Positions 1 to 49,262 of a stretch of 64,000 bases of DNA are shown here, in pieces. Both the position numbers and the translations under genes were made by a program. Below the pieces are notes generated by a model. That model was not told the DNA's origin. It ran no database searches and worked only from the letters and a program-made list of their open reading frames with translations. Numbering within the stretch: the first letter of the stretch is position 1; each line of letters begins with the position of its first letter. Source of the DNA: an uncultured Candidatus Saccharibacteria bacterium (GTDB lineage Bacteria > Patescibacteriota > Minisyncoccia > UBA6257 > 2-01-FULL-56-20); the NCBI GenBank assembly GCA_964387675.1, contig CAYLWL010000002.1:22514-86513 (forward strand). Direction: 5' to 3'.

Positions 1-377
1 AGCATGCCCAAACGTTTCATTTCCGCTTGGCCGAATTCACGGTCTTCTTCCAGGCGGTCGGTGTATGAGCTTCCGCCCACGACGGCCTTCCCGGCTTTTC
101 TCAATCTGTCGGCTTCGGCTCCGAAGCCGACATCGTCGAACACGATCACATCCGCCCAGTCGATATGGGATTTCCAGTCGGGTACTTTTTCAAGAACTCC
201 GTCATAGACATCGGCGTCGGCTGTCTCCTTGATGTAGGCCCTTACCTCGTGTCCTTCTTTTTTTATCTGCCACGCCAAGTCGCCGCTCAAACTTTCCCAA
301 CTGACGAATAAAAATTTATAAATTTTCTTCTGAACTCCGTTTCCGTTTTTCCCTTTTTCATTCGGCTGCAGCGCCAT
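1..377 (-). CDS. ATP-grasp-family enzyme, N-terminal portion (PurD-like pre-ATP-grasp region); CDS continues past window start
   Basis: Hand translation of the minus strand from ATG at 377 reads MALQPNEKGK...KFLFVSWESLSGDLAWQIKKEGHEV...VVGGSSYTDRLEEDREFGQAEMKRLGM with no stops to position 1. The GSS...LEEDR.FGK..MK..G stretch resembles the N-domain/ATP-grasp junction of PurD-type ligases. Confidence 0.4.
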   Translation of the reverse strand, partial: MALQPNEKGKNGNGVQKKIYKFLFVSWESLSGDLAWQIKKEGHEVRAYIKETADADVYDGVLEKVPDWKSHIDWADVIVFDDVGFGAEADRLRKAGKAVVGGSSYTDRLEEDREFGQAEMKRLGM

Positions 378-3783: not shown

Positions 3784-4128
3784 ATGAGTAATACAAAATC
3801 TTTTAAAGATTTAATTGTATGGCAGAAAGCGCGGAGTTTGGCGGTTGCGGTATATAAACTTTCTGAACAATTTCCTAACGTAGAGCTATATGGCCTAACA
3901 AGTCAAATGCGTCGCGCGGCCATTTCCATTTCTTCCAACATCGCCGAAAGTTACCACCGTTTTCATAGAAAAGAAAAACAGCAGTTTCTTTCTATCGCTT
4001 TTGGCTCCGGCTCGGAACTAGAAAGCCAAATAGAAATCGCCAAAGTTTTATTTCCAAAGCTGGATTATCGAGAAAGTGAAGAATTATTGTTGGAGGTTAT
4101 GAAAATACTAAATAATTTTCTACAATGA
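3784..4128 (+). CDS. four-helix-bundle protein (23S rRNA intervening-sequence protein / DGR Avd-like family), copy 1
   Basis: 114 aa. WQKARSLAVAVYKLSEQFPNVELYGLTSQMRRAAISISSNIAESYHRF matches the S23-ribosomal/IVS four-helix-bundle family. Flanked by inverted TAGAA repeats. Confidence 0.8.
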   Translation: MSNTKSFKDLIVWQKARSLAVAVYKLSEQFPNVELYGLTSQMRRAAISISSNIAESYHRFHRKEKQQFLSIAFGSGSELESQIEIAKVLFPKLDYRESEELLLEVMKILNNFLQ

Positions 4129-12619: not shown

Positions 12620-12650
12620 GATATGAGATATGAGAGATGAGGTCATAAAC
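12606..12650. repeat. ATGAGA-family hairpin arm (left arm flanking four-helix-bundle gene copy 2)
   Basis: agaaagaaatgagatatgagatatgagagatgaggtc. Provides the ATG of the 4HB ORF. Confidence 0.7.
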
Positions 12651-13004
12651 GAAGAAAAGTTTATTTTCGAGGATTTAAGGGTGTATCATAGAGCGTTGCA
12701 GCTTGCCGTTGAGCTTACTAAAATTGCAACAAAACTCCCCCACAGTTACTCGAGGATACGAGACCAGTTAATCGGGGCAGTTATTTCTATCCCATTAAAT
12801 CTTGCCGAAGGATCAGGTAGGTTGGGTGAAAAGGATAAAAAGAACTTCTATAAATTTAGTCGCTCTTCGGCATTTGAACTGATTCCAATTATTGATATAA
12901 TTTACCAATTAGAGCTTATCAACAAAGAGAAAAGAAATAATATTCGCCGCGAAGTTGTAGAACTTTCGCGTATCATTTCTGCTTTAATAAAAAAATCGTC
13001 CTAA
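12630..13004 (+). CDS. four-helix-bundle protein (23S rRNA IVS protein / Avd-like), copy 2
   Basis: KFIFEDLRVYHRALQLAVELTKIATKLPHSYSRIRDQLIGAVISIPLNLAEGSGR. Paralog of the 28266-28637 copy (about 60-65% identity by eye). Confidence 0.8.
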   Translation: MRDEVINEEKFIFEDLRVYHRALQLAVELTKIATKLPHSYSRIRDQLIGAVISIPLNLAEGSGRLGEKDKKNFYKFSRSSAFELIPIIDIIYQLELINKEKRNNIRREVVELSRIISALIKKSS

Positions 13005-28667: not shown

Positions 28668-31040
28668 ATGTTTATTTACTTCCTTATGGGTTTTATCGTA
28701 AGCGCCGTTTTGGGCGTGAGTATTTATTTTTTGGCACGGCACATCGTTCGAGGCAAGCTTTTCGCGTCTTTGGGAATGACGCTCTTGCTCATCAAGATTC
28801 CCCGCGAAACCTCCGCCCAAAACGCGCCGGAAAAAGATTTCAAAACGGAGATTAATCGATTCGAGCAGCTTTTGGGCGGGCTCGCTTCTTTGAAGAAGCC
28901 GGTTGTGTTTGAGGCGGCGGTGCCCCACGTCGGCGAGGAAATCCATTTTTATCTCGCGGTGCCCAAAAAAATGATGGAGGTAGCCATAAAACAAGTCCAG
29001 GGTTTGTGGAACGGAGCGAGCGTCGACATCGCCCCTGATGACTTCAATATCTTTAACGCCAATGGCGCGACCTCGGCCGCCTATATTATGCAGAAAGAAA
29101 ACTATGCCTTGCCGATTCGGAGTTACTTGGAACTTGGGCTCGATTCGTTCGCGTCCGTTATCGGCGGCTTTTCGAAGGTTGCCGAAATTGGCGAAGGCGC
29201 GGCGCTGCAAATTGTTCTGCGGCCCGGCCCGAAAGACGCCAAGAAAAAAATCCACGGTTTCATCCAATCCCTCAAAAAGGGCGAGCCGCTCAAAAAAGTG
29301 TTCGGCCACGAATTTCCGGTGAGTTTCTCGGAGATCGGCCAGGCCCTGAATCCCAAGAAAGAGGAAGAGAAGAAAGAGAAGATCGTCGACGAAGAGGCGG
29401 TGAAGGCGCTCGAAATGAAAATAACAAAGCCCTTATTTGAGGTGAACGTGAGGGTGGTATGCTCGGCGGGTTCCAAATTCCAGTCGGATGATATTTTGGA
29501 CGGTATCACCGCGGGTTTCAATCAATTCGGCAGTCCGAGGAGGAATGAGTTCAGGGTGGTAAAACCGAGAAACCCAAACACGGTGGCTCGCCAGTTCATA
29601 TTCCGGAATTTTGAGTCCTCGCAAAGAATGCTACTCTCTGCCGAGGAAATCGCGAGCTTCTATCATTTTCCGACGGCGCTCACCGAAACGCCTCGAATCA
29701 AATGGCTCAAGTCCAAAGAAGCCCCGCCGCCCGCAAACTTGCCCGCGAGCGGCATCCAGATAGGAGAGAGTTTATTCCGCGGCCAGACGAAGCCCGTATA
29801 TATAACACACGAGGATAGGCGGCGGCATGTGTATACCATCGGTCAGACGGGTACGGGAAAATCCACGCTTTTGGGCAATATGATTATCGAAGACATCAAG
29901 CAGGGGAGGGGCGTGGCAATCATCGATCCTCACGGCGATCTGGTGGGCAACGCCTTGGGTTTTATTCCGAAAGACCGGATTGACGACTTGATTTATTTCG
30001 ACCCCGCGGATCTTGAAAGGCCGCTTGGACTCAACATGCTGGATTATAATTTTGATCGTCCCGAAGAGAAGACATTCATCGTGAACGAGATGCAGAGTAT
30101 CTTTAACAAACTGTTCCCACCGGAGACGATGGGCCCGATGTTCGAGCAGTATATGAGGAACGCGCTTTTGCTTTTAATGGAAGACATGCCCAACGAACCG
30201 GCGACGCTCATTGAGGTCCCCAGGGTTTTTACGGACGCAGAGTACCGCGCGCGCAAACTCGAGCGGATTCAGAATCCCGTGGTCATCGATTTTTGGGAAA
30301 AAGAAGCGGTGAAGGCGGGAGGCGAAGCGTCTCTTGCCAATATGACGCCGTATATCACCTCTAAATTCAACAACTTCATTTCGAACGACTATATGCGGCC
30401 GATTATCGGCCAGGCGAAGTCGGCGTTCAATTTCAGAAAGGTGATGGATGAAGGAAAGATTTTACTCATCAATCTTTCCAAGGGAAGGATTGGAGACATC
30501 AACGCCGGACTTCTCGGCATGGTGTTCACCGGAAAGATTTTGATGGCCGCTTTGTCGAGAGTGGACATAGCCGAGGTTGAGAGGCGGCGTGACTTTAATC
30601 TCTACATAGACGAATTCCAAAACTTCACGACGGATTCCATCGCCACGATTCTCTCTGAGGCAAGAAAATACAAATTGAATCTGACGATGGCGCACCAGTT
30701 CATTGCCCAGCTCACGGAAAAAATCCGCGACGCGGTTTTCGGCAACGTCGGTTCGCAGATTGTGTTTCGCGTCGGCGTGCAGGATGCGGAGTTTTTGGTG
30801 AAGCAGTTCGAGCCGGTGTTTAGTCAGAACGATTTATTGAATATCGACAACTTGAACGCCTACGCGAAGATTTTAATCAACGGCGAAACGTCAAAACCCT
30901 TTAACATTAAAATTCTTACCACTTCCTGGGGAGCGGGCGACAAAGACATGGCCCAAAAGCTAAGGGAATACTCAAGGATGAAATACGGCATGGATCGGCA
31001 GGGGATCGAGGCGGAGATTTATAGGAGGTTGCGAGAGTAA
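28668..31040 (+). CDS. membrane-anchored P-loop ATPase of the VirD4/TraD/TraG type IV coupling-protein-like family
   Basis: N-terminal TM (FIYFLMGFIVSAVLGVSIYFL). HVYTIGQTGTGKSTLLGNMI (Walker A), then AIIDPHGDLVGNALGFIPKDRIDDLIYFDPAD, which parallels the TrwB/VirD4 block (vIvDPnGD...ilnP.d), and LYIDEFQNF (Walker B). Confidence 0.55.
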   Translation: MFIYFLMGFIVSAVLGVSIYFLARHIVRGKLFASLGMTLLLIKIPRETSAQNAPEKDFKTEINRFEQLLGGLASLKKPVVFEAAVPHVGEEIHFYLAVPKKMMEVAIKQVQGLWNGASVDIAPDDFNIFNANGATSAAYIMQKENYALPIRSYLELGLDSFASVIGGFSKVAEIGEGAALQIVLRPGPKDAKKKIHGFIQSLKKGEPLKKVFGHEFPVSFSEIGQALNPKKEEEKKEKIVDEEAVKALEMKITKPLFEVNVRVVCSAGSKFQSDDILDGITAGFNQFGSPRRNEFRVVKPRNPNTVARQFIFRNFESSQRMLLSAEEIASFYHFPTALTETPRIKWLKSKEAPPPANLPASGIQIGESLFRGQTKPVYITHEDRRRHVYTIGQTGTGKSTLLGNMIIEDIKQGRGVAIIDPHGDLVGNALGFIPKDRIDDLIYFDPADLERPLGLNMLDYNFDRPEEKTFIVNEMQSIFNKLFPPETMGPMFEQYMRNALLLLMEDMPNEPATLIEVPRVFTDAEYRARKLERIQNPVVIDFWEKEAVKAGGEASLANMTPYITSKFNNFISNDYMRPIIGQAKSAFNFRKVMDEGKILLINLSKGRIGDINAGLLGMVFTGKILMAALSRVDIAEVERRRDFNLYIDEFQNFTTDSIATILSEARKYKLNLTMAHQFIAQLTEKIRDAVFGNVGSQIVFRVGVQDAEFLVKQFEPVFSQNDLLNIDNLNAYAKILINGETSKPFNIKILTTSWGAGDKDMAQKLREYSRMKYGMDRQGIEAEIYRRLRE

Positions 31041-37915: not shown

Positions 37916-39229
37916 ATGGACAGAACTTATATCGGCAAAATCAAAGAAAAAATTGGAGAGAAAATAACGATCGAGGGTTTTGTGCAGACCGTCCGTGACC
38001 AGGGGAGTATTAAGTTTTTCATCGTGCGCGACGTGTCCGGCACCGTTCAGGTGGTGATCACGAAAAACAGCGCGGAGGCAATGAATGTCGCGAAGTTCGT
38101 AAGTTTGGAATCTGTTGTCAAAATTGAGGGGTTAGCTAAAGAAGAGGCTCAAGCTCCAGGCGGGTTCGAAGTTGCTGCAGAAAGCGTAGAAATTTTATCT
38201 CGCGCGAACCCCGAATTGCCGATCCCTGTTGTCGAAAAAGGAGCCGAAGAAACCGATCAACAGATCCGTTTGGATTGGAGGTGGATTGATTTGCGAAAAC
38301 CGGAGAAAGCCTTGATTTTCAAAGTGTGGACGACAATGGAGCAGGCGTTTAGAAACTTTTTTATTGAAAACGGATTTATCGAAATTCATTCGCCAAAATT
38401 GACGGCAACCGCCACGGAGTCCGGTGCTGAATTATTCGAGGTTAAATATTTTGATCGCAAGGCGCATCTTGCCCAATCGCCGCAGTTATACAAGCAAATG
38501 GCCATGGCGGCGGGGTTCGAAAAAGTTTTCGAGGTTGGGCCGGTTTTCCGGGCGAATCCTTCATTTACATCCCGGCATGATACGGAGTTCACTATGTACG
38601 ATATCGAAATGTCTTTTGTTTCTTCGCATCATGACCTGATGGACGTTGAAGAAAAAATGGTTGTCGCGATGCTTGCGGCGGTAAAAGAAAAGTACGGCGA
38701 CGAAATACAAAAAGCATATAACCGCGAAGTTATCGTGCCCAAAACCCCATTCCCTCGATTAACCATAAAAGAGGCAAAAGAAATTCTAGGGCGTTTGGGC
38801 ACTCCGAGCGAGCGTGGCGGCGACATGAGCCCGGAAGAAGAACGAGCTATCTCGGAACATGTGCGAAAAGAAACCGGAAACGAGTTTTTATTCCTTCACG
38901 AATTTCCGACTAAGGTCCGCGCCTTTTACAGTATGAGAAAAGATGATGACCCGACCGTAACCAAGAGTTTTGACCTGCTCTGGAACGGCATGGAAATTAC
39001 GAGTGGCGCCCAGAGAGAGCACAGGGTTGAACAATTGGAGAAGCAAATTAAGGAGCAGGGACTCAATCCGGCATCGTTCGAAACATATCTTAACTTTTTC
39101 CGATACGGGTGTCCTCCTCACGGCGGTTTTGCGCCCGGCCCTACGCGGATGCTGATGAAACTCTTTGATATAGCAAATGTCCGCGAGGTCACGTATCTCT
39201 ATCGTGGAGTAAAGAGATTAGAGCCATAA
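37916..39229 (+). CDS. aspS: aspartate--tRNA ligase, class IIb archaeal/eukaryotic-type (AspRS/AsnRS family)
   Basis: N-terminal OB fold, QSPQLYKQMAMAAGFEKVFEVGPVFRANPSFTSRHDTEFTMYD (motif 2), C-terminal GGFAPGPTRMLM (motif 3). Asp versus Asn specificity not resolvable by eye. Confidence 0.65.
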   Translation: MDRTYIGKIKEKIGEKITIEGFVQTVRDQGSIKFFIVRDVSGTVQVVITKNSAEAMNVAKFVSLESVVKIEGLAKEEAQAPGGFEVAAESVEILSRANPELPIPVVEKGAEETDQQIRLDWRWIDLRKPEKALIFKVWTTMEQAFRNFFIENGFIEIHSPKLTATATESGAELFEVKYFDRKAHLAQSPQLYKQMAMAAGFEKVFEVGPVFRANPSFTSRHDTEFTMYDIEMSFVSSHHDLMDVEEKMVVAMLAAVKEKYGDEIQKAYNREVIVPKTPFPRLTIKEAKEILGRLGTPSERGGDMSPEEERAISEHVRKETGNEFLFLHEFPTKVRAFYSMRKDDDPTVTKSFDLLWNGMEITSGAQREHRVEQLEKQIKEQGLNPASFETYLNFFRYGCPPHGGFAPGPTRMLMKLFDIANVREVTYLYRGVKRLEP

Positions 39230-39233
39230 TACC

Positions 39234-40307
39234 ATGCAAGGAATTGATTTCCCTCTGTCAAAAACTAAACAAGAATCAGGCCGCAAGTTCAACTTAAACG
39301 ATCCTCGCGATCGGCAGAGGTATTTTTCGTCGAAAGTTGGAGCGGAGATCGAAAAGCTCAAAAAGTATCTTGCGAGCGGAAAAACGTTTGTCGGCTATCT
39401 TTTGGGTAAAAAGAATTCGGGGAAAGGGACGTATTCGAAACTTTTTATGGAAGCGTTAGGAACGGATCGCGTGGGCCACGTCGCGGTGGGGGATATTGTG
39501 CGCGACGTGCACTCCGGCCTTGCCGACCCCGCGACGAAAAAAGAACTCTCTGATTTTTTGAGCAAGAACTATCGGGGGTTCCACAGTTTGGAAGAAATTG
39601 AGCAGGTTATCGAAGGGCGGAGCCAGTCGACCCTAGTCCCCACGGAGCTTATCCTTGCTCTCTTAAAGTTTGAAATCAGCAAACGCCCCCGACAAGCGCT
39701 TTTTATCGACGGCTTTCCTCGCGGCCTCGATCAGATCGGTTATTCGCTCTATTTGAAAGAGCTTTTGGGATACCGCGATGACCCGGACTTTTTCGTTTTT
39801 ATCAGTTTGCCGAATACCGTCCTCGACGAGAGGATCAAGTACCGCGTGATCTGCCCGATCTGCAAAACTCCGAGGAGCACCAAGCTGTTGGCGACGAGCG
39901 GAGCCGGCTACGACGAGGCGGCAAGAAAGTTCTATCTGATATGCGATAATCCGCCCTGCAACAAAGCGCGTATGGTTCCCAAAGAAGGAGACGAGCTGGG
40001 GATCGAGCCCATCCGCGCCCGGCTTGAAACCGACGACCAGATTTTCCGAAAGTTGCTCGAGCTCCAAGGCGTGCCGAAGGTGTATCTCCGCAACGCGGTG
40101 CCCTCCGCCGAAGCAAAAGAATACGTGGATGATTACGAACTTACTCCGGCGTACGGCTACGAGCTTGACCAAGCAACGAAGAACGTAAAGATTCTCGAGT
40201 CCCCGTGGGTCGTTGAGGATGACGACGGCATCCCGTCATACAGTTTATTACCGCCGGCGGTTGTGGTGTCGTTAATCCGGCAAGTAGTCCACGTGCTCAA
40301 ACTTTAG
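39234..40307 (+). CDS. divergent adenylate-kinase-family protein with N- and C-terminal extensions
   Basis: GYLLGKKNSGKGTYSKLF (P-loop like Adk GxPGxGKGT), FIDGFPRGLDQ (Adk NMP-binding motif), zinc LID ICPICKT...CDNPPC. 357 aa versus about 215 for canonical Adk. Confidence 0.55.
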   Translation: MQGIDFPLSKTKQESGRKFNLNDPRDRQRYFSSKVGAEIEKLKKYLASGKTFVGYLLGKKNSGKGTYSKLFMEALGTDRVGHVAVGDIVRDVHSGLADPATKKELSDFLSKNYRGFHSLEEIEQVIEGRSQSTLVPTELILALLKFEISKRPRQALFIDGFPRGLDQIGYSLYLKELLGYRDDPDFFVFISLPNTVLDERIKYRVICPICKTPRSTKLLATSGAGYDEAARKFYLICDNPPCNKARMVPKEGDELGIEPIRARLETDDQIFRKLLELQGVPKVYLRNAVPSAEAKEYVDDYELTPAYGYELDQATKNVKILESPWVVEDDDGIPSYSLLPPAVVVSLIRQVVHVLKL

Positions 40308-40315
40308 TTTTTATT

Positions 40316-40897
40316 ATGGCCGATCTTGACCCGCGTTTACATTTCGTAGTGCCGACCGCGATCGTCGTGAAAAACGGGAAATTTTTGATCGCCAAACGTG
40401 CCGCCCACGAAAAGGCGTTTCCGGATAAATGGACGGTGCCCGGAGGCAAGCTGGTGCTCCATGAATATGAGCACCTGCCACGGGGTTTTCGTGGTCGTCA
40501 TGATGACGACCACGGCGAAGGAGGGGTCGGGAGGAAAGTACAAGGTTCCTCCCGTGTAGGAGATTATTCAGAACTGAGGGTTCTGAAGGAGGAGCGAAGC
40601 GACGACCCGCAATGGTACAACGTCGTGGAGTGGGTGCTTCGAAAAGAAGTTCGCGAAGAAGTCGATTTGGAGATCGAGAAGCCGCGGTATCTTTGCGATC
40701 TGGTTTTCGTGCGGCCGGACGGCTATCCGGTGGTAACACTCTCGTACTGGGCTTTCTACAAAAGCGGAGAAGTGAAACTTTGCAAGGACTTGACCGATTA
40801 CGCCTGGGTGACGGTTGAAGAGGCGAAGCAATACGATCTCATCGACGGCATCTGGGACGAAATCAAAGAAGTGGCAGATATCGTAAAAAAAGTATAA
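40316..40897 (+). CDS. NUDIX hydrolase with about 50-aa insertion inside the Nudix box
   Basis: WTVPGGKLV...[insert]...LRKEVREEVDL. The Nudix box GGx5E...REVxEE is split by a palindrome-rich insert at 40470-40625. Confidence 0.65.
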   Translation: MADLDPRLHFVVPTAIVVKNGKFLIAKRAAHEKAFPDKWTVPGGKLVLHEYEHLPRGFRGRHDDDHGEGGVGRKVQGSSRVGDYSELRVLKEERSDDPQWYNVVEWVLRKEVREEVDLEIEKPRYLCDLVFVRPDGYPVVTLSYWAFYKSGEVKLCKDLTDYAWVTVEEAKQYDLIDGIWDEIKEVADIVKKV

Positions 40898-40911: not shown

Positions 40912-41628
40912 TTATTCTTTGAATGCTTTGATTATCGGATCGAGGTCGCCATCCAAGATTCGTACTATATTATGAAACTTTTTCCCAAGGCGGTGATCGG
41001 TGATCCGGTCGTCGGGGAAGTTGTAGGTTCTGATTTTTTCCGAGCGGTCGCCGGTGCCCACCTGTTCCCTGCGCGTTGCGCCGAGTTTTCGAGCATCCGT
41101 TTCTTTTTGGAGGTCGTAGAGTTTCGCTCGTAACACCGCCATCGCCCGCTCGCGGTTCGCGTGCTGGGCTCGTTCCACGCGCGAGGAAACGACGATGCCG
41201 GTCGGTTTGTGGAGAATTCGCACCGCGCTCTCTATCTTGTTGACGTTTTGCCCGCCGGGGCCTCCGGCGCGCGAAAAAGTTACCTCAAGGTCATTCGGGT
41301 TTATAGTTACTTCTTTCGGTTCGACTTCCGGGATAATGGCAACGGTTGCGGTTGAGGTGTGAACCCGGCCGGACTTCTCGGTGTCCGGTATCCTCTGGAT
41401 TCGGTGAACGCCGGACTCATGCCGAAGCGCCTCCAATATTCCGGCGCCGCCAACCTCGGCCACAAAAGTTTTGTACCCGTTGAGCGACGTTTGATTCGAG
41501 TCGAGAACCGCGAACGACCAGCCCCGCTTCGCGGCGTAGCGCTGGTACATTCTCGCGAGATCGCCGGCGAAGATCGCGGCTTCATCGCCGCCGACCCCTG
41601 CTCTAATTTCTAAGATAATTTTTTCCAT
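40912..41628 (-). CDS. prfA: class I peptide chain release factor, RF1-like (PDT motif), lacking N-terminal domain 1
   Basis: [26 protein letters not shown] (PxT codon-recognition motif), [22 protein letters not shown] (GGQ). Only 239 aa from MEKIIL. The 250 nt upstream is non-coding. Confidence 0.7.
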
Positions 41629-41924
41629 AATGTAGAGTATGTACGGAAATTCGCTGTTTGTCCAAATGAATAACCGCACCGCAGAGCGGTGCGGTGTCAC
41701 CGCTTAAGGATTGCGGTTATTCACCCATCCCCATTTGCTGTAAAATCTATGCATATGTACTATTTGAAGACGAAGTCGCCTTGCGGCTCTGATTGTGTAA
41801 TAGCTCAATCTCTGCCACAAATGGGGAGGGGTTTATTATTCACGCGTCGCAATTCATCCCGCCCGGGCTTCGACTGAACTCAGCCGAATGTCCAAGCGGG
41901 CGGGTATTCTTGCGAGTGAATAAT

Positions 41925-46572: not shown

Positions 46573-47577
46573 ATGTTAGGCAAAGGCCTCGAGTCATTAA
46601 TACCTCCGTCGCAAGGAGATGACGGCGTCGGGCAACCCGCGGCGCCAAGGACAATACCGGAGGACGCTGTAAAAAGTAATGCGGATGATCTCAAACCGCA
46701 CGATTTTGTTTTTCATATCGAGGTCGCTAAAATTTCACCGAATCCGAATCAGCCTCGCCGAAACTTCGATGAAGCCGGAATACGGGAACTCGCGAATTCT
46801 ATCCGCGAATTCGGCTTTTTACAGCCGCTTGTGATTACGCGCCGCGAAAAAGAGACGCCGAACGGCGTTGAGGTGAGCTACGAACTGATTGCCGGAGAGC
46901 GCCGGCTGATGGCCGCGAAGATGCTGGGACTCGAAGTGGTGCCGGCGATCATCAAGGGAGTCGATCGGGAGCGCGAAAAACTCGAACTCGCGATCGTAGA
47001 AAACATCCAGCGCGAGAACTTGAATCCGATCGAATCAGCCCGCGCCTTCCAGCAACTCCAAGAAGAATTCAGGTTAACGCAAAGAGAAATCGCCTCAAAG
47101 CTTGGGAAAAGCAGAGAATCGGTGGCGAATACGATGCGACTTCTCGATCTCCCGCCTTACGTTCAAGAAGCGCTTGAGAAAGGATACATTACGGAAAGCC
47201 ATGGCAGGTTTTTGCTGTCGGTTGCGAACCCCGGGAATCAGAGAAGGTTGTTCGATGAAATTATGATGAAGGGGCTGACCACGAGAGAGGTGAAAGAGAG
47301 AATACGCAGCGAAAACGCCGCCTCCGGGACGCCGGCCGCGGCCGAGTCGCCCAAAGAGACACATATTGGTTCGGCGCCGCTCACCACAAGAGAACTTCCT
47401 CCCGAGTTCAAAATGGCGGAAGAAAAATTGAGTTCCGAACTCGGCACGCCGGTGAAAATCGAGAAAAAAGGAGATCCGCCGGCTGGCGGAGGAAAGATTA
47501 CCATTACGTTCTACTCGGAAGAAGAACTGGAGAGTATTTTACGCAAAATCGGCGGCGGCGATCAAACAAGCTTATAG
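46573..47577 (+). CDS. parB: chromosome partitioning protein ParB/Spo0J
   Basis: GFLQPLVITRRE...YELIAGERRLMAAKMLGL, HTH block, C-terminal dimerisation region. Confidence 0.85.
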   Translation: MLGKGLESLIPPSQGDDGVGQPAAPRTIPEDAVKSNADDLKPHDFVFHIEVAKISPNPNQPRRNFDEAGIRELANSIREFGFLQPLVITRREKETPNGVEVSYELIAGERRLMAAKMLGLEVVPAIIKGVDREREKLELAIVENIQRENLNPIESARAFQQLQEEFRLTQREIASKLGKSRESVANTMRLLDLPPYVQEALEKGYITESHGRFLLSVANPGNQRRLFDEIMMKGLTTREVKERIRSENAASGTPAAAESPKETHIGSAPLTTRELPPEFKMAEEKLSSELGTPVKIEKKGDPPAGGGKITITFYSEEELESILRKIGGGDQTSL

Positions 47578-49262
47578 CTCACCTCCCGCACGCCTTTTAC
47601 TTTTTTTAGTTTGACAATGAGTTTTTGCAGGGTCTTCTTATCGGTAGTATCAACCTCCACTTTGTTTATCAAAAATTTCCCGGGCTGATGGGGGGCATGG
47701 AAGCTTAGAATTTTTATGTGCGATTGGGCAATAGCGGCTGATATGTCTTTGATCAAACCGACGCGGTCCTCGACGGTGATCTTCAGTTCGGTTTTGGTTG
47801 GCAGGTTGGCGCGCCTCGCGAAATCTCCCCGATTGCGCAACGCGTTTTTGATGTGATCCCGCGCGAGCGCGGTTTTCACGAATTTCAGCCAGTCCTCGGC
47901 CGGCTTTTTATTTTTTTGCGTGATGATTTCGACGAGTTCGCCGGAATGAAGCTCGTGATCCAGGGGGACGAGGGTGTTGTTCACTTTGGCGCCGACACAC
48001 GAGTCGCCGACTTCGCTGTGGATTTGGTACGCAAAATCGACCGGCGTCGATCCGACCGGCAAGTCAATGACGTCTCCCTTCGGGGTGATCGCGAAAATCC
48101 TGTCCTTGAAAAAATCAATTTTCATCGCTTGCATGAATTCATCGGGTTCGTAATCCTTGCTCCGGAACTTTTCCTGCCAGTTTTTGAGCTGTTGCACCCA
48201 GCGCAGTTCTTCGGCCATCTTTTTTGCCGCGCCGCCGGCCGCGACGCCCTTTTTCGATTGTTCATATATCCAATGAGCCGCGACGCCATGCTCGTTTTCC
48301 TCGTGCATCGATTTGGTCCGTATCTGGAACTCGACCATCTTGCCTTCGGGGCCGATGACCGTGGTGTGCAAACTTCGGTAATTATTCGGCTTGGGCATGG
48401 CAATGTAGTCCTTGATGCGTCCCGGGAGCGGCGGCCACTTTTCGTGAATGATGCCGAGCACGGCGTAGCACTCGGGAATCGTTTCCACAATAATCCTCAT
48501 GGCCACGATGTCGTATATCTTTTCCATATCCATATTGTGCCGCAGAAGTTTGTGGTATAAGCTCGACCGGCGTTTGGCCCGGAAGTCTATCTGAATCGGT
48601 TTCAATTTGTGCTGATGCAGGGTTTCTTCGAGCGCGGGTTTTATGTGCTCCAGATATCGGTACCTGTTTTCGTAGAGTTCCACGGCGATTTTTTCGAGCC
48701 ATTTGTCTTCTTTGTGATAGAGATAAGGGAAGGCGAGGTCGTGCAGTTCTCCGCTCAAATTTTGCATACCCAGGCGATAGGCGAGCGGGGCGTAAATTTC
48801 GTCGGTTTCGAGCGCGATCCTTTTCTGCTTGACGGGCGGGAGCGCCGCGAGCGTTTTCATGTTATGGAGCCGGTCGGCGAGTTTGATGAAAACCACCCGC
48901 AGATCGTGGCTTAGGGCGAGTATCATTTTTCTCATGTTCTCGACTTTGCTTTCCACGCCGCGATATTTTATCCTGCCGAGCTTGGTGACCCCATCCACCA
49001 AAAACGCCACTTCCTCGCCGAATTGTTCTTTAATCTGCGCGATCGGCACGCCCGTATCCTCCACGATGTCGTGGAGCAGGCCGGCCGCGATAGTATCTTC
49101 ATCCAGGTGCCACTCATTCAAAATTTCCGCGGTGGCGAGGACATGCTTGAAGTACGGCTCGCCGTTTTCTCTCTTCTGGCCGGCGTGCGCTTTCTCCGCG
49201 AAAGCGAATGCTCTTCCGGTGACGCTATTCGGTTTTATTTTGACGAATTCCGCTATGGTCAT
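47562..49262 (-). CDS. rsh: bifunctional (p)ppGpp synthetase/hydrolase RelA/SpoT homolog (short)
   Basis: HD domain (HLDEDTIAAGLLHDIVEDT), synthetase (RSLHTTVIGPEGKMVEFQIRT), TGS and ACT-like C-terminus. Confidence 0.85.
   Translation of the reverse strand: MTIAEFVKIKPNSVTGRAFAFAEKAHAGQKRENGEPYFKHVLATAEILNEWHLDEDTIAAGLLHDIVEDTGVPIAQIKEQFGEEVAFLVDGVTKLGRIKYRGVESKVENMRKMILALSHDLRVVFIKLADRLHNMKTLAALPPVKQKRIALETDEIYAPLAYRLGMQNLSGELHDLAFPYLYHKEDKWLEKIAVELYENRYRYLEHIKPALEETLHQHKLKPIQIDFRAKRRSSLYHKLLRHNMDMEKIYDIVAMRIIVETIPECYAVLGIIHEKWPPLPGRIKDYIAMPKPNNYRSLHTTVIGPEGKMVEFQIRTKSMHEENEHGVAAHWIYEQSKKGVAAGGAAKKMAEELRWVQQLKNWQEKFRSKDYEPDEFMQAMKIDFFKDRIFAITPKGDVIDLPVGSTPVDFAYQIHSEVGDSCVGAKVNNTLVPLDHELHSGELVEIITQKNKKPAEDWLKFVKTALARDHIKNALRNRGDFARRANLPTKTELKITVEDRVGLIKDISAAIAQSHIKILSFHAPHQPGKFLINKVEVDTTDKKTLQKLIVKLKKVKGVREVSYKLV

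What the first reader, a model, noticed from the sequence alone, without database searches (positions are those of the whole stretch)
39234..40307. Adenylate-kinase-like protein extended to 357 aa
A P-loop (GKKNSGKGT), NMP-binding motif (IDGFPRGLDQ) and zinc LID (CPICKT...CDNPPC) are recognisable, but there are about 50 extra N-terminal and about 100 extra C-terminal residues. It is either a highly divergent Adk or an NMP kinase recruited to a new function.
Basis: partly seen in the sequence, partly recalled or inferred. Interest (0 to 1): 0.5.

Follow-up and report, generated by a model that had tools for sequence, protein, structure and literature searches.

The report
Oversized second adenylate-kinase paralogue in Patescibacteria
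The ORF is a real, strongly conserved 357-residue member of the adenylate kinase family, found only in ultra-small Patescibacteria; it keeps nearly all the catalytic residues, carries about 140 extra residues in four inserted modules of unknown role, and in at least three related organisms sits alongside a separate short adenylate kinase.

Summary
The ORF at 39234-40307(+) is real and identical to an NCBI protein from a Candidatus Liptonbacteria MAG, named 'nucleoside monophosphate kinase'. It passes Pfam ADK (40.6 bits, cut-off 26.8) but fails every curated adk equivalog (56 against 168 bits). The P-loop, the AMP-site Arg/Arg/Gln and most LID residues are invariant, and four cysteines form a zinc-type LID. 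One LID arginine is an invariant lysine.

The extra length is not a 100-residue tail. It is four insertions: an N-terminal arm plus helix (1-52), an NMP-domain helix (107-129), a LID hairpin (228-241), and a beta-meander (288-339) placed where ordinary Adk has its ATP-adenine loop. These modules are conserved almost as well as the core, modelled with confidence (pLDDT 92), and match no solved structure.

The family ('adkL') covers over 3,900 sequence clusters and 391 species representatives; every informatively named record is Patescibacteria. In three organisms a short 196-residue Adk ('adkS') holds the canonical secY-adk-map slot and adkL follows map. So adkL is an old paralogue, not the positional adk.

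The usual neighbours are aspS (4-nt gap here) and a split ComEC.

Most likely it is an active NTP:NMP phosphotransferase, probably acting on AMP. Substrate, the function of the modules, and whether this genome also has adkS were not settled.

The parts
39234..40307 (+). adkL: 357-aa ORF of the adenylate kinase family (stop TAG at 40305-40307)
   Evidence: ORF listing. Identical to the NCBI 'nucleoside monophosphate kinase', Ca. Liptonbacteria. Pfam ADK 40.6 bits. AF2 model pLDDT 91.9, pTM 0.89.
39234..39389 (+). Family-specific N-terminal extension, aa 1-52: an ordered arm (1-23) plus a long helix (24-47)
   Evidence: Absent from B. subtilis and E. coli Adk in alignment A1. Helix 24-47 with block pLDDT 86-97. 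R27, Y30, F31 and K34 are invariant. Mean column identity 0.67, against 0.76-0.80 for the core.
39405..39431 (+). P-loop GKKNSGKGT (aa 58-66)
   Evidence: G63 and K64 are invariant down to relatives of 22% identity; K60 is nearly invariant.
39552..39620 (+). Insertion in the NMP-binding domain, aa 107-129 (extra helix 119-127)
   Evidence: Gap opposite both canonical Adks in A1. Helix in the model. Mean column identity 0.76.
39708..39734 (+). DGFPRGLDQ (aa 159-167): R163 = E. coli R88 and Q167 = E. coli Q92, the residues that bind the AMP phosphate and the adenine
   Evidence: D159, G160, F161, P162, R163 and Q167 are invariant, canonical Adks included. Q167 is invariant and R163 nearly so in distant relatives.
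39843..40001 (+). Enlarged zinc-type LID, aa 204-256: R204, C207-x2-C210, a 13-aa hairpin insert (228-241), C237-x4-C242, K250, D253
   Evidence: R204, C207, C210, C237, C242 and K250 are invariant in 17 sequences spanning 22-51% identity. Strands at 204-206, 213-215, 223-227 and 232-236. Aligns with the B. subtilis Zn LID.
40095..40250 (+). C-terminal insertion, aa 288-339: a short strand and helix followed by a four-stranded beta-meander, between the last core strand (282-286) and the terminal helix
40251..40304 (+). C-terminal helix, aa 340-357, equivalent to the last helix of ordinary Adk
   Evidence: Helix 340-354. Aligned with the C-terminal helices of B. subtilis and E. coli Adk.
37916..39229 (+). 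aspS (non-discriminating, archaeal-type AspRS, 437 aa), immediately upstream; 4-nt gap to adkL
   Evidence: NF003483 519.7 bits, above its cut-off. Pfam tRNA-synt_2. Junction sequence. aspS lies directly upstream of adkL in 35 of 80 related loci, median gap 13 nt.
40316..40897 (+). Nudix hydrolase gene, 8 nt downstream of adkL on the same strand; probably the third gene of the aspS-adkL-nudix unit
   Evidence: Pfam NUDIX 31.6 bits. Junction sequence. A nudix gene follows adkL in about 20 of 80 loci.

Best explanation
The ORF encodes a cytoplasmic, catalytically competent phosphotransferase of the adenylate kinase family (NTP + NMP <-> NDP + NDP). It is built on a long-type Adk core with a four-cysteine zinc LID. 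I call the family adkL. It is an ancient paralogue restricted to Patescibacteria.

It is not the positional adk. Where the region can be read, a separate short Adk (adkS, 196 aa) occupies the secY-adk-map slot.

Because adkL keeps the AMP-site signature (R90, R163, Q167, L134), AMP is the most likely phosphate acceptor. Its role would be nucleotide salvage and adenylate balance in organisms that mostly cannot make nucleotides de novo.

In this genome it is co-transcribed with aspS and a Nudix gene.

Four conserved extra modules decorate the enzyme. One replaces the loop that normally cradles the adenine of ATP, so the donor site is probably remodelled.

What is shown: the fold, the conserved residues, the paralogy, and the gene order. 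What is inferred: the activity, the acceptor, the donor, and the role of the modules.
For: Family assignment:
- Pfam ADK is above its gathering score.
- All PDB sequence hits are Adk or UMP-CMP kinases.
- The top 50 Foldseek hits are all adenylate kinases.

Catalytic residues. These are invariant in an alignment with E. coli and B. subtilis Adk: G58, G63-K64-G65-T66, G86-D87, R90 (=R36), D159-R163 (=R88), Q167 (=Q92), R200 (=R119), R204 (=R123), D253 (=D159), R263 (=R167). The key ones remain invariant down to 22% identity.

The modules are real. The model has pLDDT 91.9 and pTM 0.89. The extensions are conserved at 0.67-0.76 mean column identity, against 0.76-0.80 for the core.

Distribution:
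- more than 3,977 clusters;
- 391 GTDB species representatives, where every informative name is a Patescibacteria lineage and five generic TPA labels read 'uncultured Gammaproteobacteria';
- distant relatives that carry names are also Patescibacteria;
- none found on viral contigs.

Paralogy:
- S5-L15-secY-adkS-map-adkL in L069 and L070 and in L095;
- adkS lies next to secY in 46 of 80 metagenome loci and next to map in 57;
- adkL and adkS profiles share only 20% identity.

Operon: the gap to aspS is 4 nt here. The median gap is 13 nt in 35 loci.

Context from the literature: Patescibacteria largely lack de novo nucleotide synthesis and rely on Adk-type interconversion (bioRxiv 10.64898/2026.06.21.733656; PMC4508563).
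Against: - No enzymology exists for any member.
- E. coli R156, a catalytic LID arginine, is an invariant Lys (K250), and D158 is an invariant Gly (G252). In ordinary Adks, Arg-to-Lys changes at LID arginines greatly reduce turnover (my knowledge of the Adk mutagenesis literature, not checked here).
- T31 is Val or Ile.
- The P-loop lacks the usual Pro-Gly (KKNSGKGT).
- Scores are far below every curated adk equivalog cut-off.
- The donor-site loop is replaced by a 50-residue module, so ATP use is assumed, not shown.
- Whether this particular MAG also carries adkS was not determined.
Confidence: 0.55

Rival explanations
1. adkL is an NMP (or NDP) kinase with a changed or broadened specificity. 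It would supply an activity these genomes otherwise lack: GMP, CMP or dNMP phosphorylation, or Ndk-like NDP phosphorylation. adkS would remain the adenylate kinase.
For: - Two Adk-family paralogues coexist in at least three organisms.
- Nelson & Stegen 2015 found cmk, gmk and tmk poorly represented in Parcubacteria while adk is well represented, and proposed relaxed specificity (PMC4508563).
- The ATP-adenine loop is replaced by a novel module.
- T31 is Val and R156 is Lys.
- In the three organisms where adkL is linked to the spc operon, it sits directly after map. That is the slot ndk occupies in 20 other spc loci and in L172-L175.
- A split ComEC (DNA uptake) lies upstream on the same strand in 41 of 80 loci.
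Against: - adkL keeps Gln167 at the position that specifies adenine in AMP kinases, and keeps both AMP-phosphate arginines. It is adkS that has changed this Gln to an invariant Glu.
- The shared slot and the ComEC synteny may reflect only the conserved order of housekeeping genes.
- The MBL partner of ComEC carries an N-terminal membrane anchor, so its products may be extracellular.
- The phyletic complementarity with ndk, gmk, cmk and tmk could not be tested.
Confidence: 0.25
2. adkL is the physiological (possibly the only) adenylate kinase of this Liptonbacteria genome. It would be a divergent functional replacement for canonical adk, with adkS lost or re-specialised.
For: - No other Adk-like ORF lies in the 64-kb window, and none was called in the 10 kb upstream of it (L087).
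- adkL retains the AMP-specific Gln, while adkS carries Glu there.
- adkL's closest solved relatives are bona fide long Zn-LID Adks.
- adkL appears in at least as many sequence clusters as adkS.
Against: - Only about 74 kb of the genome was read, and that stretch contains no spc operon, which is where adkS would be expected.
- adkS has the complete catalytic set of a short Adk and holds the canonical slot across many lineages.
- Wherever both regions are visible, both genes are present.
Confidence: 0.25
3. adkL is not primarily a metabolic kinase. It would be an Adk-fold NTPase that acts on a macromolecular partner in translation, like Fap7/AK6 in ribosome biogenesis, with the extra modules mediating binding.
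For: - The neighbours are mostly translation genes: aspS, hisS, a truncated RF1, efp, map, and rpsG-fusA downstream.
- About 140 conserved extra residues suggest an interaction surface.
Against: - The full NMP-binding signature (R90, R163, Q167) and the LID are conserved to 22% identity, which such a role would not require.
- The extra modules match no known RNA- or protein-binding fold.
- Housekeeping gene order is broadly conserved in these small genomes, so the neighbours are weak evidence.
Confidence: 0.08

Closest known systems
Long-type bacterial adenylate kinase with a zinc LID (e.g. Bacillus subtilis Adk, PDB 1P3J; Geobacillus 1ZIN)
   Same: - Same fold (Foldseek probability 1.00, TM-score normalised to the target about 0.6).
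- Best sequence hits in the PDB.
- P-loop GK(G)T, xGDxxR, DGFPRxxxQ, and the LID arginines R123 and R167.
- Four metal-type ligands in the LID.
   Different: - 357 aa against about 215, with four insertions.
- Cys spacing is C-x2-C...C-x4-C with a 13-aa hairpin, in place of C-x2-C-x16-C-x2-C/D.
- R156 is Lys, D158 is Gly, T31 is Val.
- PF05191 does not hit.
- 56 bits against the 168 cut-off of TIGR01351.
- Not encoded between secY and map.
adkS: the short (196 aa) Adk-family protein in the Patescibacteria spc operon (also annotated 'nucleoside monophosphate kinase')
   Same: - Same superfamily, and both fall below all curated adk cut-offs.
- Both are largely confined to Patescibacteria.
- They are present together in L069, L070 and L095.
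   Different: - adkS has a short LID (RGRxDD) and no cysteines, none of the four modules, and sits at the canonical secY-adk-map position.
- It carries Glu where adkL and AMP kinases have Gln.
- Only 20% identity between the two profiles.
UMP-CMP kinase / eukaryotic short adenylate kinases (yeast Ura6 1UKZ, AK1, AK5)
   Different: adkL has a long zinc LID. TIGR01359 scores 30.4 bits against a cut-off of 207.6. adkL keeps Gln at the base-specifying position.
Extended or multidomain eukaryotic adenylate kinases (AK7, AK8, AK9 of axonemes)
   Different: There the extra mass is tandem Adk domains or docking domains. Here it is four insertions inside a single Adk domain. No homology beyond the core.
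AK6 / Fap7 / hCINAP
   Different: AK6-type proteins lack the canonical Adk NMP-binding and LID signatures that adkL conserves (my knowledge for AK6; for adkL). The structural score is lower than for Adk.

Membership tests
Adenylate kinase family (Pfam PF00406, EC 2.7.4.3-like NMP kinases) | Match to the family profile above the curated threshold | tested here: met
   PF00406 scores 40.6 bits against a gathering score of 26.8, E = 3.5e-10, in two stretches.
Adenylate kinase family (Pfam PF00406, EC 2.7.4.3-like NMP kinases) | P-loop GxxxxGK(G)T | tested here: met
   GKKNSGKGT at aa 58-66. G63 and K64 are invariant to 22% identity. The usual Pro-Gly is replaced by Lys-Asn.
Adenylate kinase family (Pfam PF00406, EC 2.7.4.3-like NMP kinases) | NMP-site residues: R36, R88 and Q92 (E. 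coli numbering) | tested here: met
   R90, R163 and Q167 are invariant in A1 and A2. In distant relatives Q167 is invariant and R163 nearly so. T31 is Val/Ile.
Adenylate kinase family (Pfam PF00406, EC 2.7.4.3-like NMP kinases) | LID and core catalytic residues: R119, R123, R156, D158, D159, R167 | tested here: inconclusive
   R200, R204, D253 and R263 are conserved. R156 is an invariant K250 and D158 is an invariant G252. The effect on catalysis is unknown.
Adenylate kinase family (Pfam PF00406, EC 2.7.4.3-like NMP kinases) | Adk three-domain fold (CORE, NMPbind, LID) | tested here: met
Adenylate kinase family (Pfam PF00406, EC 2.7.4.3-like NMP kinases) | ATP:AMP phosphotransferase activity | not testable with these tools
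   No biochemical data for any member were found in four of the five literature searches, those on adenylate kinase or ComEC in CPR/Patescibacteria/Parcubacteria.
Housekeeping bacterial adk (NCBIfam TIGR01351 and the PRK00279-type equivalogs; positional orthologue in the spc operon) | Score above the curated equivalog or subfamily cut-off | tested here: not met
   The best score is TIGR01351 at 56 bits against a cut-off of 168. All 17 adk and UMP-CMP models are far below their cut-offs.
Housekeeping bacterial adk (NCBIfam TIGR01351 and the PRK00279-type equivalogs; positional orthologue in the spc operon) | Gene located between secY and map | tested here: not met
   Here the order is mgtC(-), aspS, adkL, nudix. 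In L069, L070 and L095 the secY-map slot holds adkS and adkL follows map. None of the 80 loci has adkL between secY and map.
Housekeeping bacterial adk (NCBIfam TIGR01351 and the PRK00279-type equivalogs; positional orthologue in the spc operon) | Single compact domain of about 180-230 aa | tested here: not met
   357 aa with four conserved insertions.
Zinc-LID subtype of long Adk (Pfam PF05191 ADK_lid) | Four metal ligands, C-x2-C ... C-x2-C/D, and a match to PF05191 | tested here: inconclusive
   Four invariant Cys (207, 210, 237, 242), but with spacing C-x2-C-x26-C-x4-C. PF05191 is not reported even at E <= 10. Metal binding is not testable here.
UMP-CMP kinase family (TIGR01359) | Score above the cut-off; short LID | tested here: not met
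   30.4 bits against 207.6. The LID is long and Cys-rich.

The most novel reading that the evidence does not exclude
adkL is not a redundant AMP kinase. It would be the enzyme that supplies a nucleotide-phosphorylating activity these reduced genomes appear to lack: GMP, CMP or dNMP kinase, or Ndk-like NDP kinase.

The beta-meander replacing the ATP-adenine loop would redefine donor or acceptor specificity.

That would explain the old puzzle of why Parcubacteria keep 'adk' but often lack gmk, cmk and tmk. It would also explain why adkL sits in the slot that ndk occupies in related spc operons.
Probability: 0.25. Interest if true: 0.6.

Novelty: new variant of a known kind. Interest (0 to 1): 0.42.

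Why it matters
Patescibacteria (CPR) make up a large share of bacterial diversity, and most cannot make nucleotides. They depend on phosphotransfer among salvaged nucleotides. Genome surveys count 'adk' as present and have puzzled over missing gmk, cmk and tmk (PMC4508563).

This work shows that 'adk' in these organisms is in fact two very different and very divergent paralogues. One is a short enzyme in the canonical operon slot whose adenine-specifying Gln has become Glu. The other is a 357-residue zinc-LID enzyme that keeps the Gln but has a rebuilt donor site.

That changes how metabolic reconstructions should be read, and it gives two concrete proteins to assay.

For enzymologists, adkL is a natural Adk with enlarged LID and NMP domains and an inserted module at the ATP site. 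Adk is a classic model for conformational dynamics, so this variant is of interest.

The finding is still a member of a very well-known superfamily, already auto-annotated as an NMP kinase, and no new chemistry has been demonstrated.

Tried and rejected

2. Reading the rest of the contig or MAG. The look-up of encoding contigs reached 10 kb upstream (L087, GCA_016204365.1, contig JACQKV010000013.1). It showed no spc operon. Look-ups at the other end and in the middle returned only short Logan contigs.

3. Finding a Liptonbacteria adkS.
- I tried matching contig lengths between the adkL and adkS hit lists. No match.
- The third protein search used a high-GC adkS-like query. It turned out to be a clade with one Chthoniobacterales label, not Liptonbacteria.

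4. A fold for the extra modules.
- The afdb50 library was unavailable.

5. Phage origin or auxiliary metabolic gene. No relatives on IMG/VR contigs. PHROGs gave only a 17-bit hit.

6. Chance ORF or pseudogene. Rejected because of conservation and the exact database match.

7. The overlapping minus-strand ORFs inside the gene (39663-40172 and 39835-40116). Disregarded as frame shadows of a conserved gene.

8. RNA features nearby. None; only tRNAs elsewhere in the window.

9. A recent duplication giving adkS and adkL. Rejected: 20% profile identity.

Full report
**Observation.** The window carries an ORF at 39234-40307 on the + strand: ATG start, TAG stop, 357 aa.
- GKKNSGKGT at aa 58-66;
- IDGFPRGLDQ at aa 158-167;
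- CPICKT at aa 207-212;
- CDNPPC at aa 237-242.

The protein is identical to an NCBI entry named 'MAG: nucleoside monophosphate kinase [Candidatus Liptonbacteria bacterium]' (P0001). The window is the reverse complement of part of contig JACQKV010000013.1 (98,590 bp) of assembly GCA_016204365.1.

**Family assignment.** Pfam ADK (PF00406) matches at 40.6 bits, above its gathering score of 26.8.
- ADK_lid (PF05191) does not appear even at E <= 10.
- In NCBIfam the best model is TIGR01351 (adk) at 56 bits against a cut-off of 168. All adk equivalogs and the UMP-CMP kinase model are far below threshold.
- All PDB sequence hits are adenylate or UMP-CMP kinases, led by the zinc-LID Adk of Bacillus.
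- An AlphaFold2 model built on 49 relatives is confident: pLDDT 91.9, pTM 0.89.
- The top 50 Foldseek hits are all adenylate kinases.

**Anatomy.** The surplus of about 140 residues is not a 100-residue tail. It is four insertions:
- an N-terminal arm (1-23) and long helix (24-47);
- a roughly 23-residue insert with an extra helix in the NMP-binding domain (107-129);
- a roughly 13-residue hairpin in the LID (228-241);
- a roughly 50-residue module, mostly a beta-meander (288-339), between the last core strand (282-286) and the C-terminal helix (340-354).

In ordinary Adk that last position is the short loop that packs against the adenine of ATP (E. coli residues 198-201). This rests on my knowledge of the 1AKE complex, not on a test here. 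The donor site is therefore probably remodelled.

**Catalytic residues.** These are invariant across the family and the two canonical Adks: G63-K64-G65-T66, G86-D87, R90 (E. coli R36), D159-G-F-P-R163 (R88), Q167 (Q92), R200 (R119), R204 (R123), D253 (D159) and R263 (R167).

In a wider set reaching 22% identity, G63, K64, G86, D159, G160, Q167, R204, the four cysteines and K250 stay invariant.

There are departures from the Adk consensus:
- R156 is an invariant Lys (K250);
- D158 is an invariant Gly (G252);
- T31 is Val or Ile;
- the P-loop Pro-Gly is Lys-Asn.

The protein therefore looks like an active phosphotransferase with an AMP-type acceptor site, though one LID arginine is replaced.

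**Distribution.**
- The word-indexed search found more than 3,977 clusters. The top 120 are all 340-391 aa and 63-74% identical.
- A scan of one genome per GTDB species found 391 species with a relative. The best 80 are labelled Liptonbacteria, Doudnabacteria, Komeilibacteria, Jorgensenbacteria, Colwellbacteria, Sungiibacteriota, Parcubacteria, Paceibacterota, Minisyncoccia or generic Patescibacteria. Some carry placeholder TPA labels, five of which read 'uncultured Gammaproteobacteria'.
- The exhaustive HMMER search of 1.84 billion representatives gave only 693 hits at E <= 0.001. Most ordinary Adks are not reached.
- The distant full-length relatives (320-346 aa) that carry a name are again Patescibacteria.
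- Nothing was found on viral contigs.

**Is there another adk?** The 64-kb window has none, and none was called in the 10 kb upstream of it. Related genomes do have one.

In L069 (Parcubacteria GW2011_GWA2_40_14) and L070 the order is S5-L15-secY-[196-aa Adk]-map-adkL. A third organism, L095, shows the same order.

This short protein, which I call adkS, lies next to secY in 46 of 80 metagenome loci and next to map in 57. It is the positional orthologue of bacterial adk.
- It has a short LID with the full R-G-R-x-D-D set and no cysteines.
- It is also below all curated adk cut-offs.
- It has an invariant Glu where AMP kinases and adkL have Gln.
- The adkL and adkS profiles share only 20% identity over 131 columns, so the two are old paralogues.

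Whether the Liptonbacteria MAG itself has adkS could not be determined. The spc operon is not in the readable 74 kb, and my attempts to retrieve a Liptonbacteria adkS failed.

**Gene neighbourhood.** Here aspS (non-discriminating AspRS) ends 4 nt before adkL, and a Nudix gene starts 8 nt after it.

Across the 80 species-representative loci:
- aspS lies directly upstream in 35, with a median gap of 13 nt and several overlaps;
- a ComEC gene followed by a separate membrane-anchored metallo-beta-lactamase gene lies upstream on the same strand in 41, and that gene directly abuts adkL in 16;
- a cyclophilin gene intervenes in the Doudnabacteria-type loci;
- an M50 protease gene and then rpsG-fusA often follow downstream.

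In spc operons of related genomes, ndk directly follows map in 20 loci and in L172-L175. That is the slot adkL occupies in L069, L070 and L095. These links fit a role in nucleotide phosphorylation or translation-coupled AMP recycling. They could also reflect nothing more than the conserved order of housekeeping genes in small genomes.

**Interpretation.** The best-supported reading is that adkL is an active NTP:NMP phosphotransferase, an ancient Patescibacteria-specific paralogue of Adk, with AMP as the most likely acceptor because the AMP-site residues are retained. I put this at 0.55.

The rivals are:
- a changed or broadened specificity that fills the gaps noted by Nelson & Stegen 2015 (cmk, gmk and tmk poorly represented, adk well represented; PMC4508563), or an Ndk-like role (0.25);
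- adkL as the main or sole adenylate kinase in this genome (0.25, overlapping with the best reading);
- a Fap7-like non-metabolic role in translation (0.08).

A recent preprint stresses how central Adk-type phosphotransfer is to RNA-fed nucleotide metabolism in this phylum (10.64898/2026.06.21.733656). Neither that preprint nor four of the five literature searches, those on adenylate kinase or ComEC in these lineages, turned up any mention of the two-paralogue situation or of the long form.

**Novelty and verdict.** The protein is a member of a very well-known superfamily and is already auto-annotated as an NMP kinase, so it is not categorically new. What is new:
- the four-insertion architecture;
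- the invariant Arg-to-Lys change in the LID;
- the rebuilt donor loop;
- coexistence with a separate positional Adk;
- no curated family model for it: in Pfam and NCBIfam it reaches only the generic ADK model, with nothing covering the extra modules.

I rate it a new variant of a known kind, interest 0.42.

Noticed in passing
window 40912-41700 (-); related loci L005-L060; L087 2336-3382: An N-terminally truncated RF1 paralogue (238-262 aa). It matches only positions 105-338 of the RF1 model (363 bits, below the 400 cut-off) and so lacks domain 1. It lies downstream of adkL on the opposite strand here and in about 22 of 80 related loci. A full-length prfA (348 aa) lies upstream of the window on the same contig.
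   Followed up: partly
window 40316-40897 (+): The Nudix gene after adkL has its Nudix box split. GGKLVLHE and REVREEVDL are separated by a charged, low-complexity insert of about 50 residues. Pfam NUDIX scores only 31.6 bits, and only on the C-terminal part.
   Followed up: no
L029 7681-9944, L025, L059, L066 and about 40 other loci upstream of adkL: ComEC is split in these Patescibacteria. A DUF4131+Competence gene is followed by a separate metallo-beta-lactamase gene with an N-terminal membrane anchor. Meheust et al. 2019 (PMC6744442) reported the fused ComEC-MBL form as essentially absent from CPR; the domain appears to be kept as its own gene.
   Followed up: partly
L069 7488-8078; L070 2014-2610; alignment A3: The short Adk in the spc operon of Patescibacteria (adkS) has an invariant Glu at the position of the adenine-specifying Gln92 (motif DGxxRSLPEA) and an unusual RQPDF segment in the NMP site. 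Its acceptor specificity may therefore differ from AMP.
   Followed up: partly
L142-L148, L152-L157, L161-L171 (metagenome contigs, GC 0.50-0.56): A tight clade of adkS-like proteins, about 50% identical to CPR adkS, sits outside any spc-operon context in high-GC soil contigs. One member is labelled Chthoniobacterales (Verrucomicrobiota). This could be horizontal transfer or mis-binning.
   Followed up: partly
L172-L175 and 20 metagenome loci (e.g. L113 11376-11996): In many Paceibacteria-type spc operons ndk directly follows map (L15-secY-adkS-map-ndk). In the three organisms with spc-linked adkL, adkL takes that slot and no ndk is seen within 10 kb.
   Followed up: partly
L087 7040-9412 (-), which runs into window 1-377: A 790-aa purD (GARS_A ... 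GARS_C) with a faint LAGLIDADG hit between the two halves. This may be an intein-containing purine-synthesis gene, in a lineage that mostly lacks de novo nucleotide synthesis.
   Followed up: no
window about 3784-4128 (+) and 12630-13004 (+): Two genes for '23S rRNA intervening sequence' proteins (PF05635). One is inside the type IV pilus cluster and one lies between scpA and scpB.
   Followed up: no
window 47562-49262 (-) and 28668-31040 (+): A full-length RelA/SpoT homologue (HD, RelA_SpoT, TGS and ACT domains) and a 790-aa VirD4/TraG-like coupling ATPase are encoded in this small genome.
   Followed up: no
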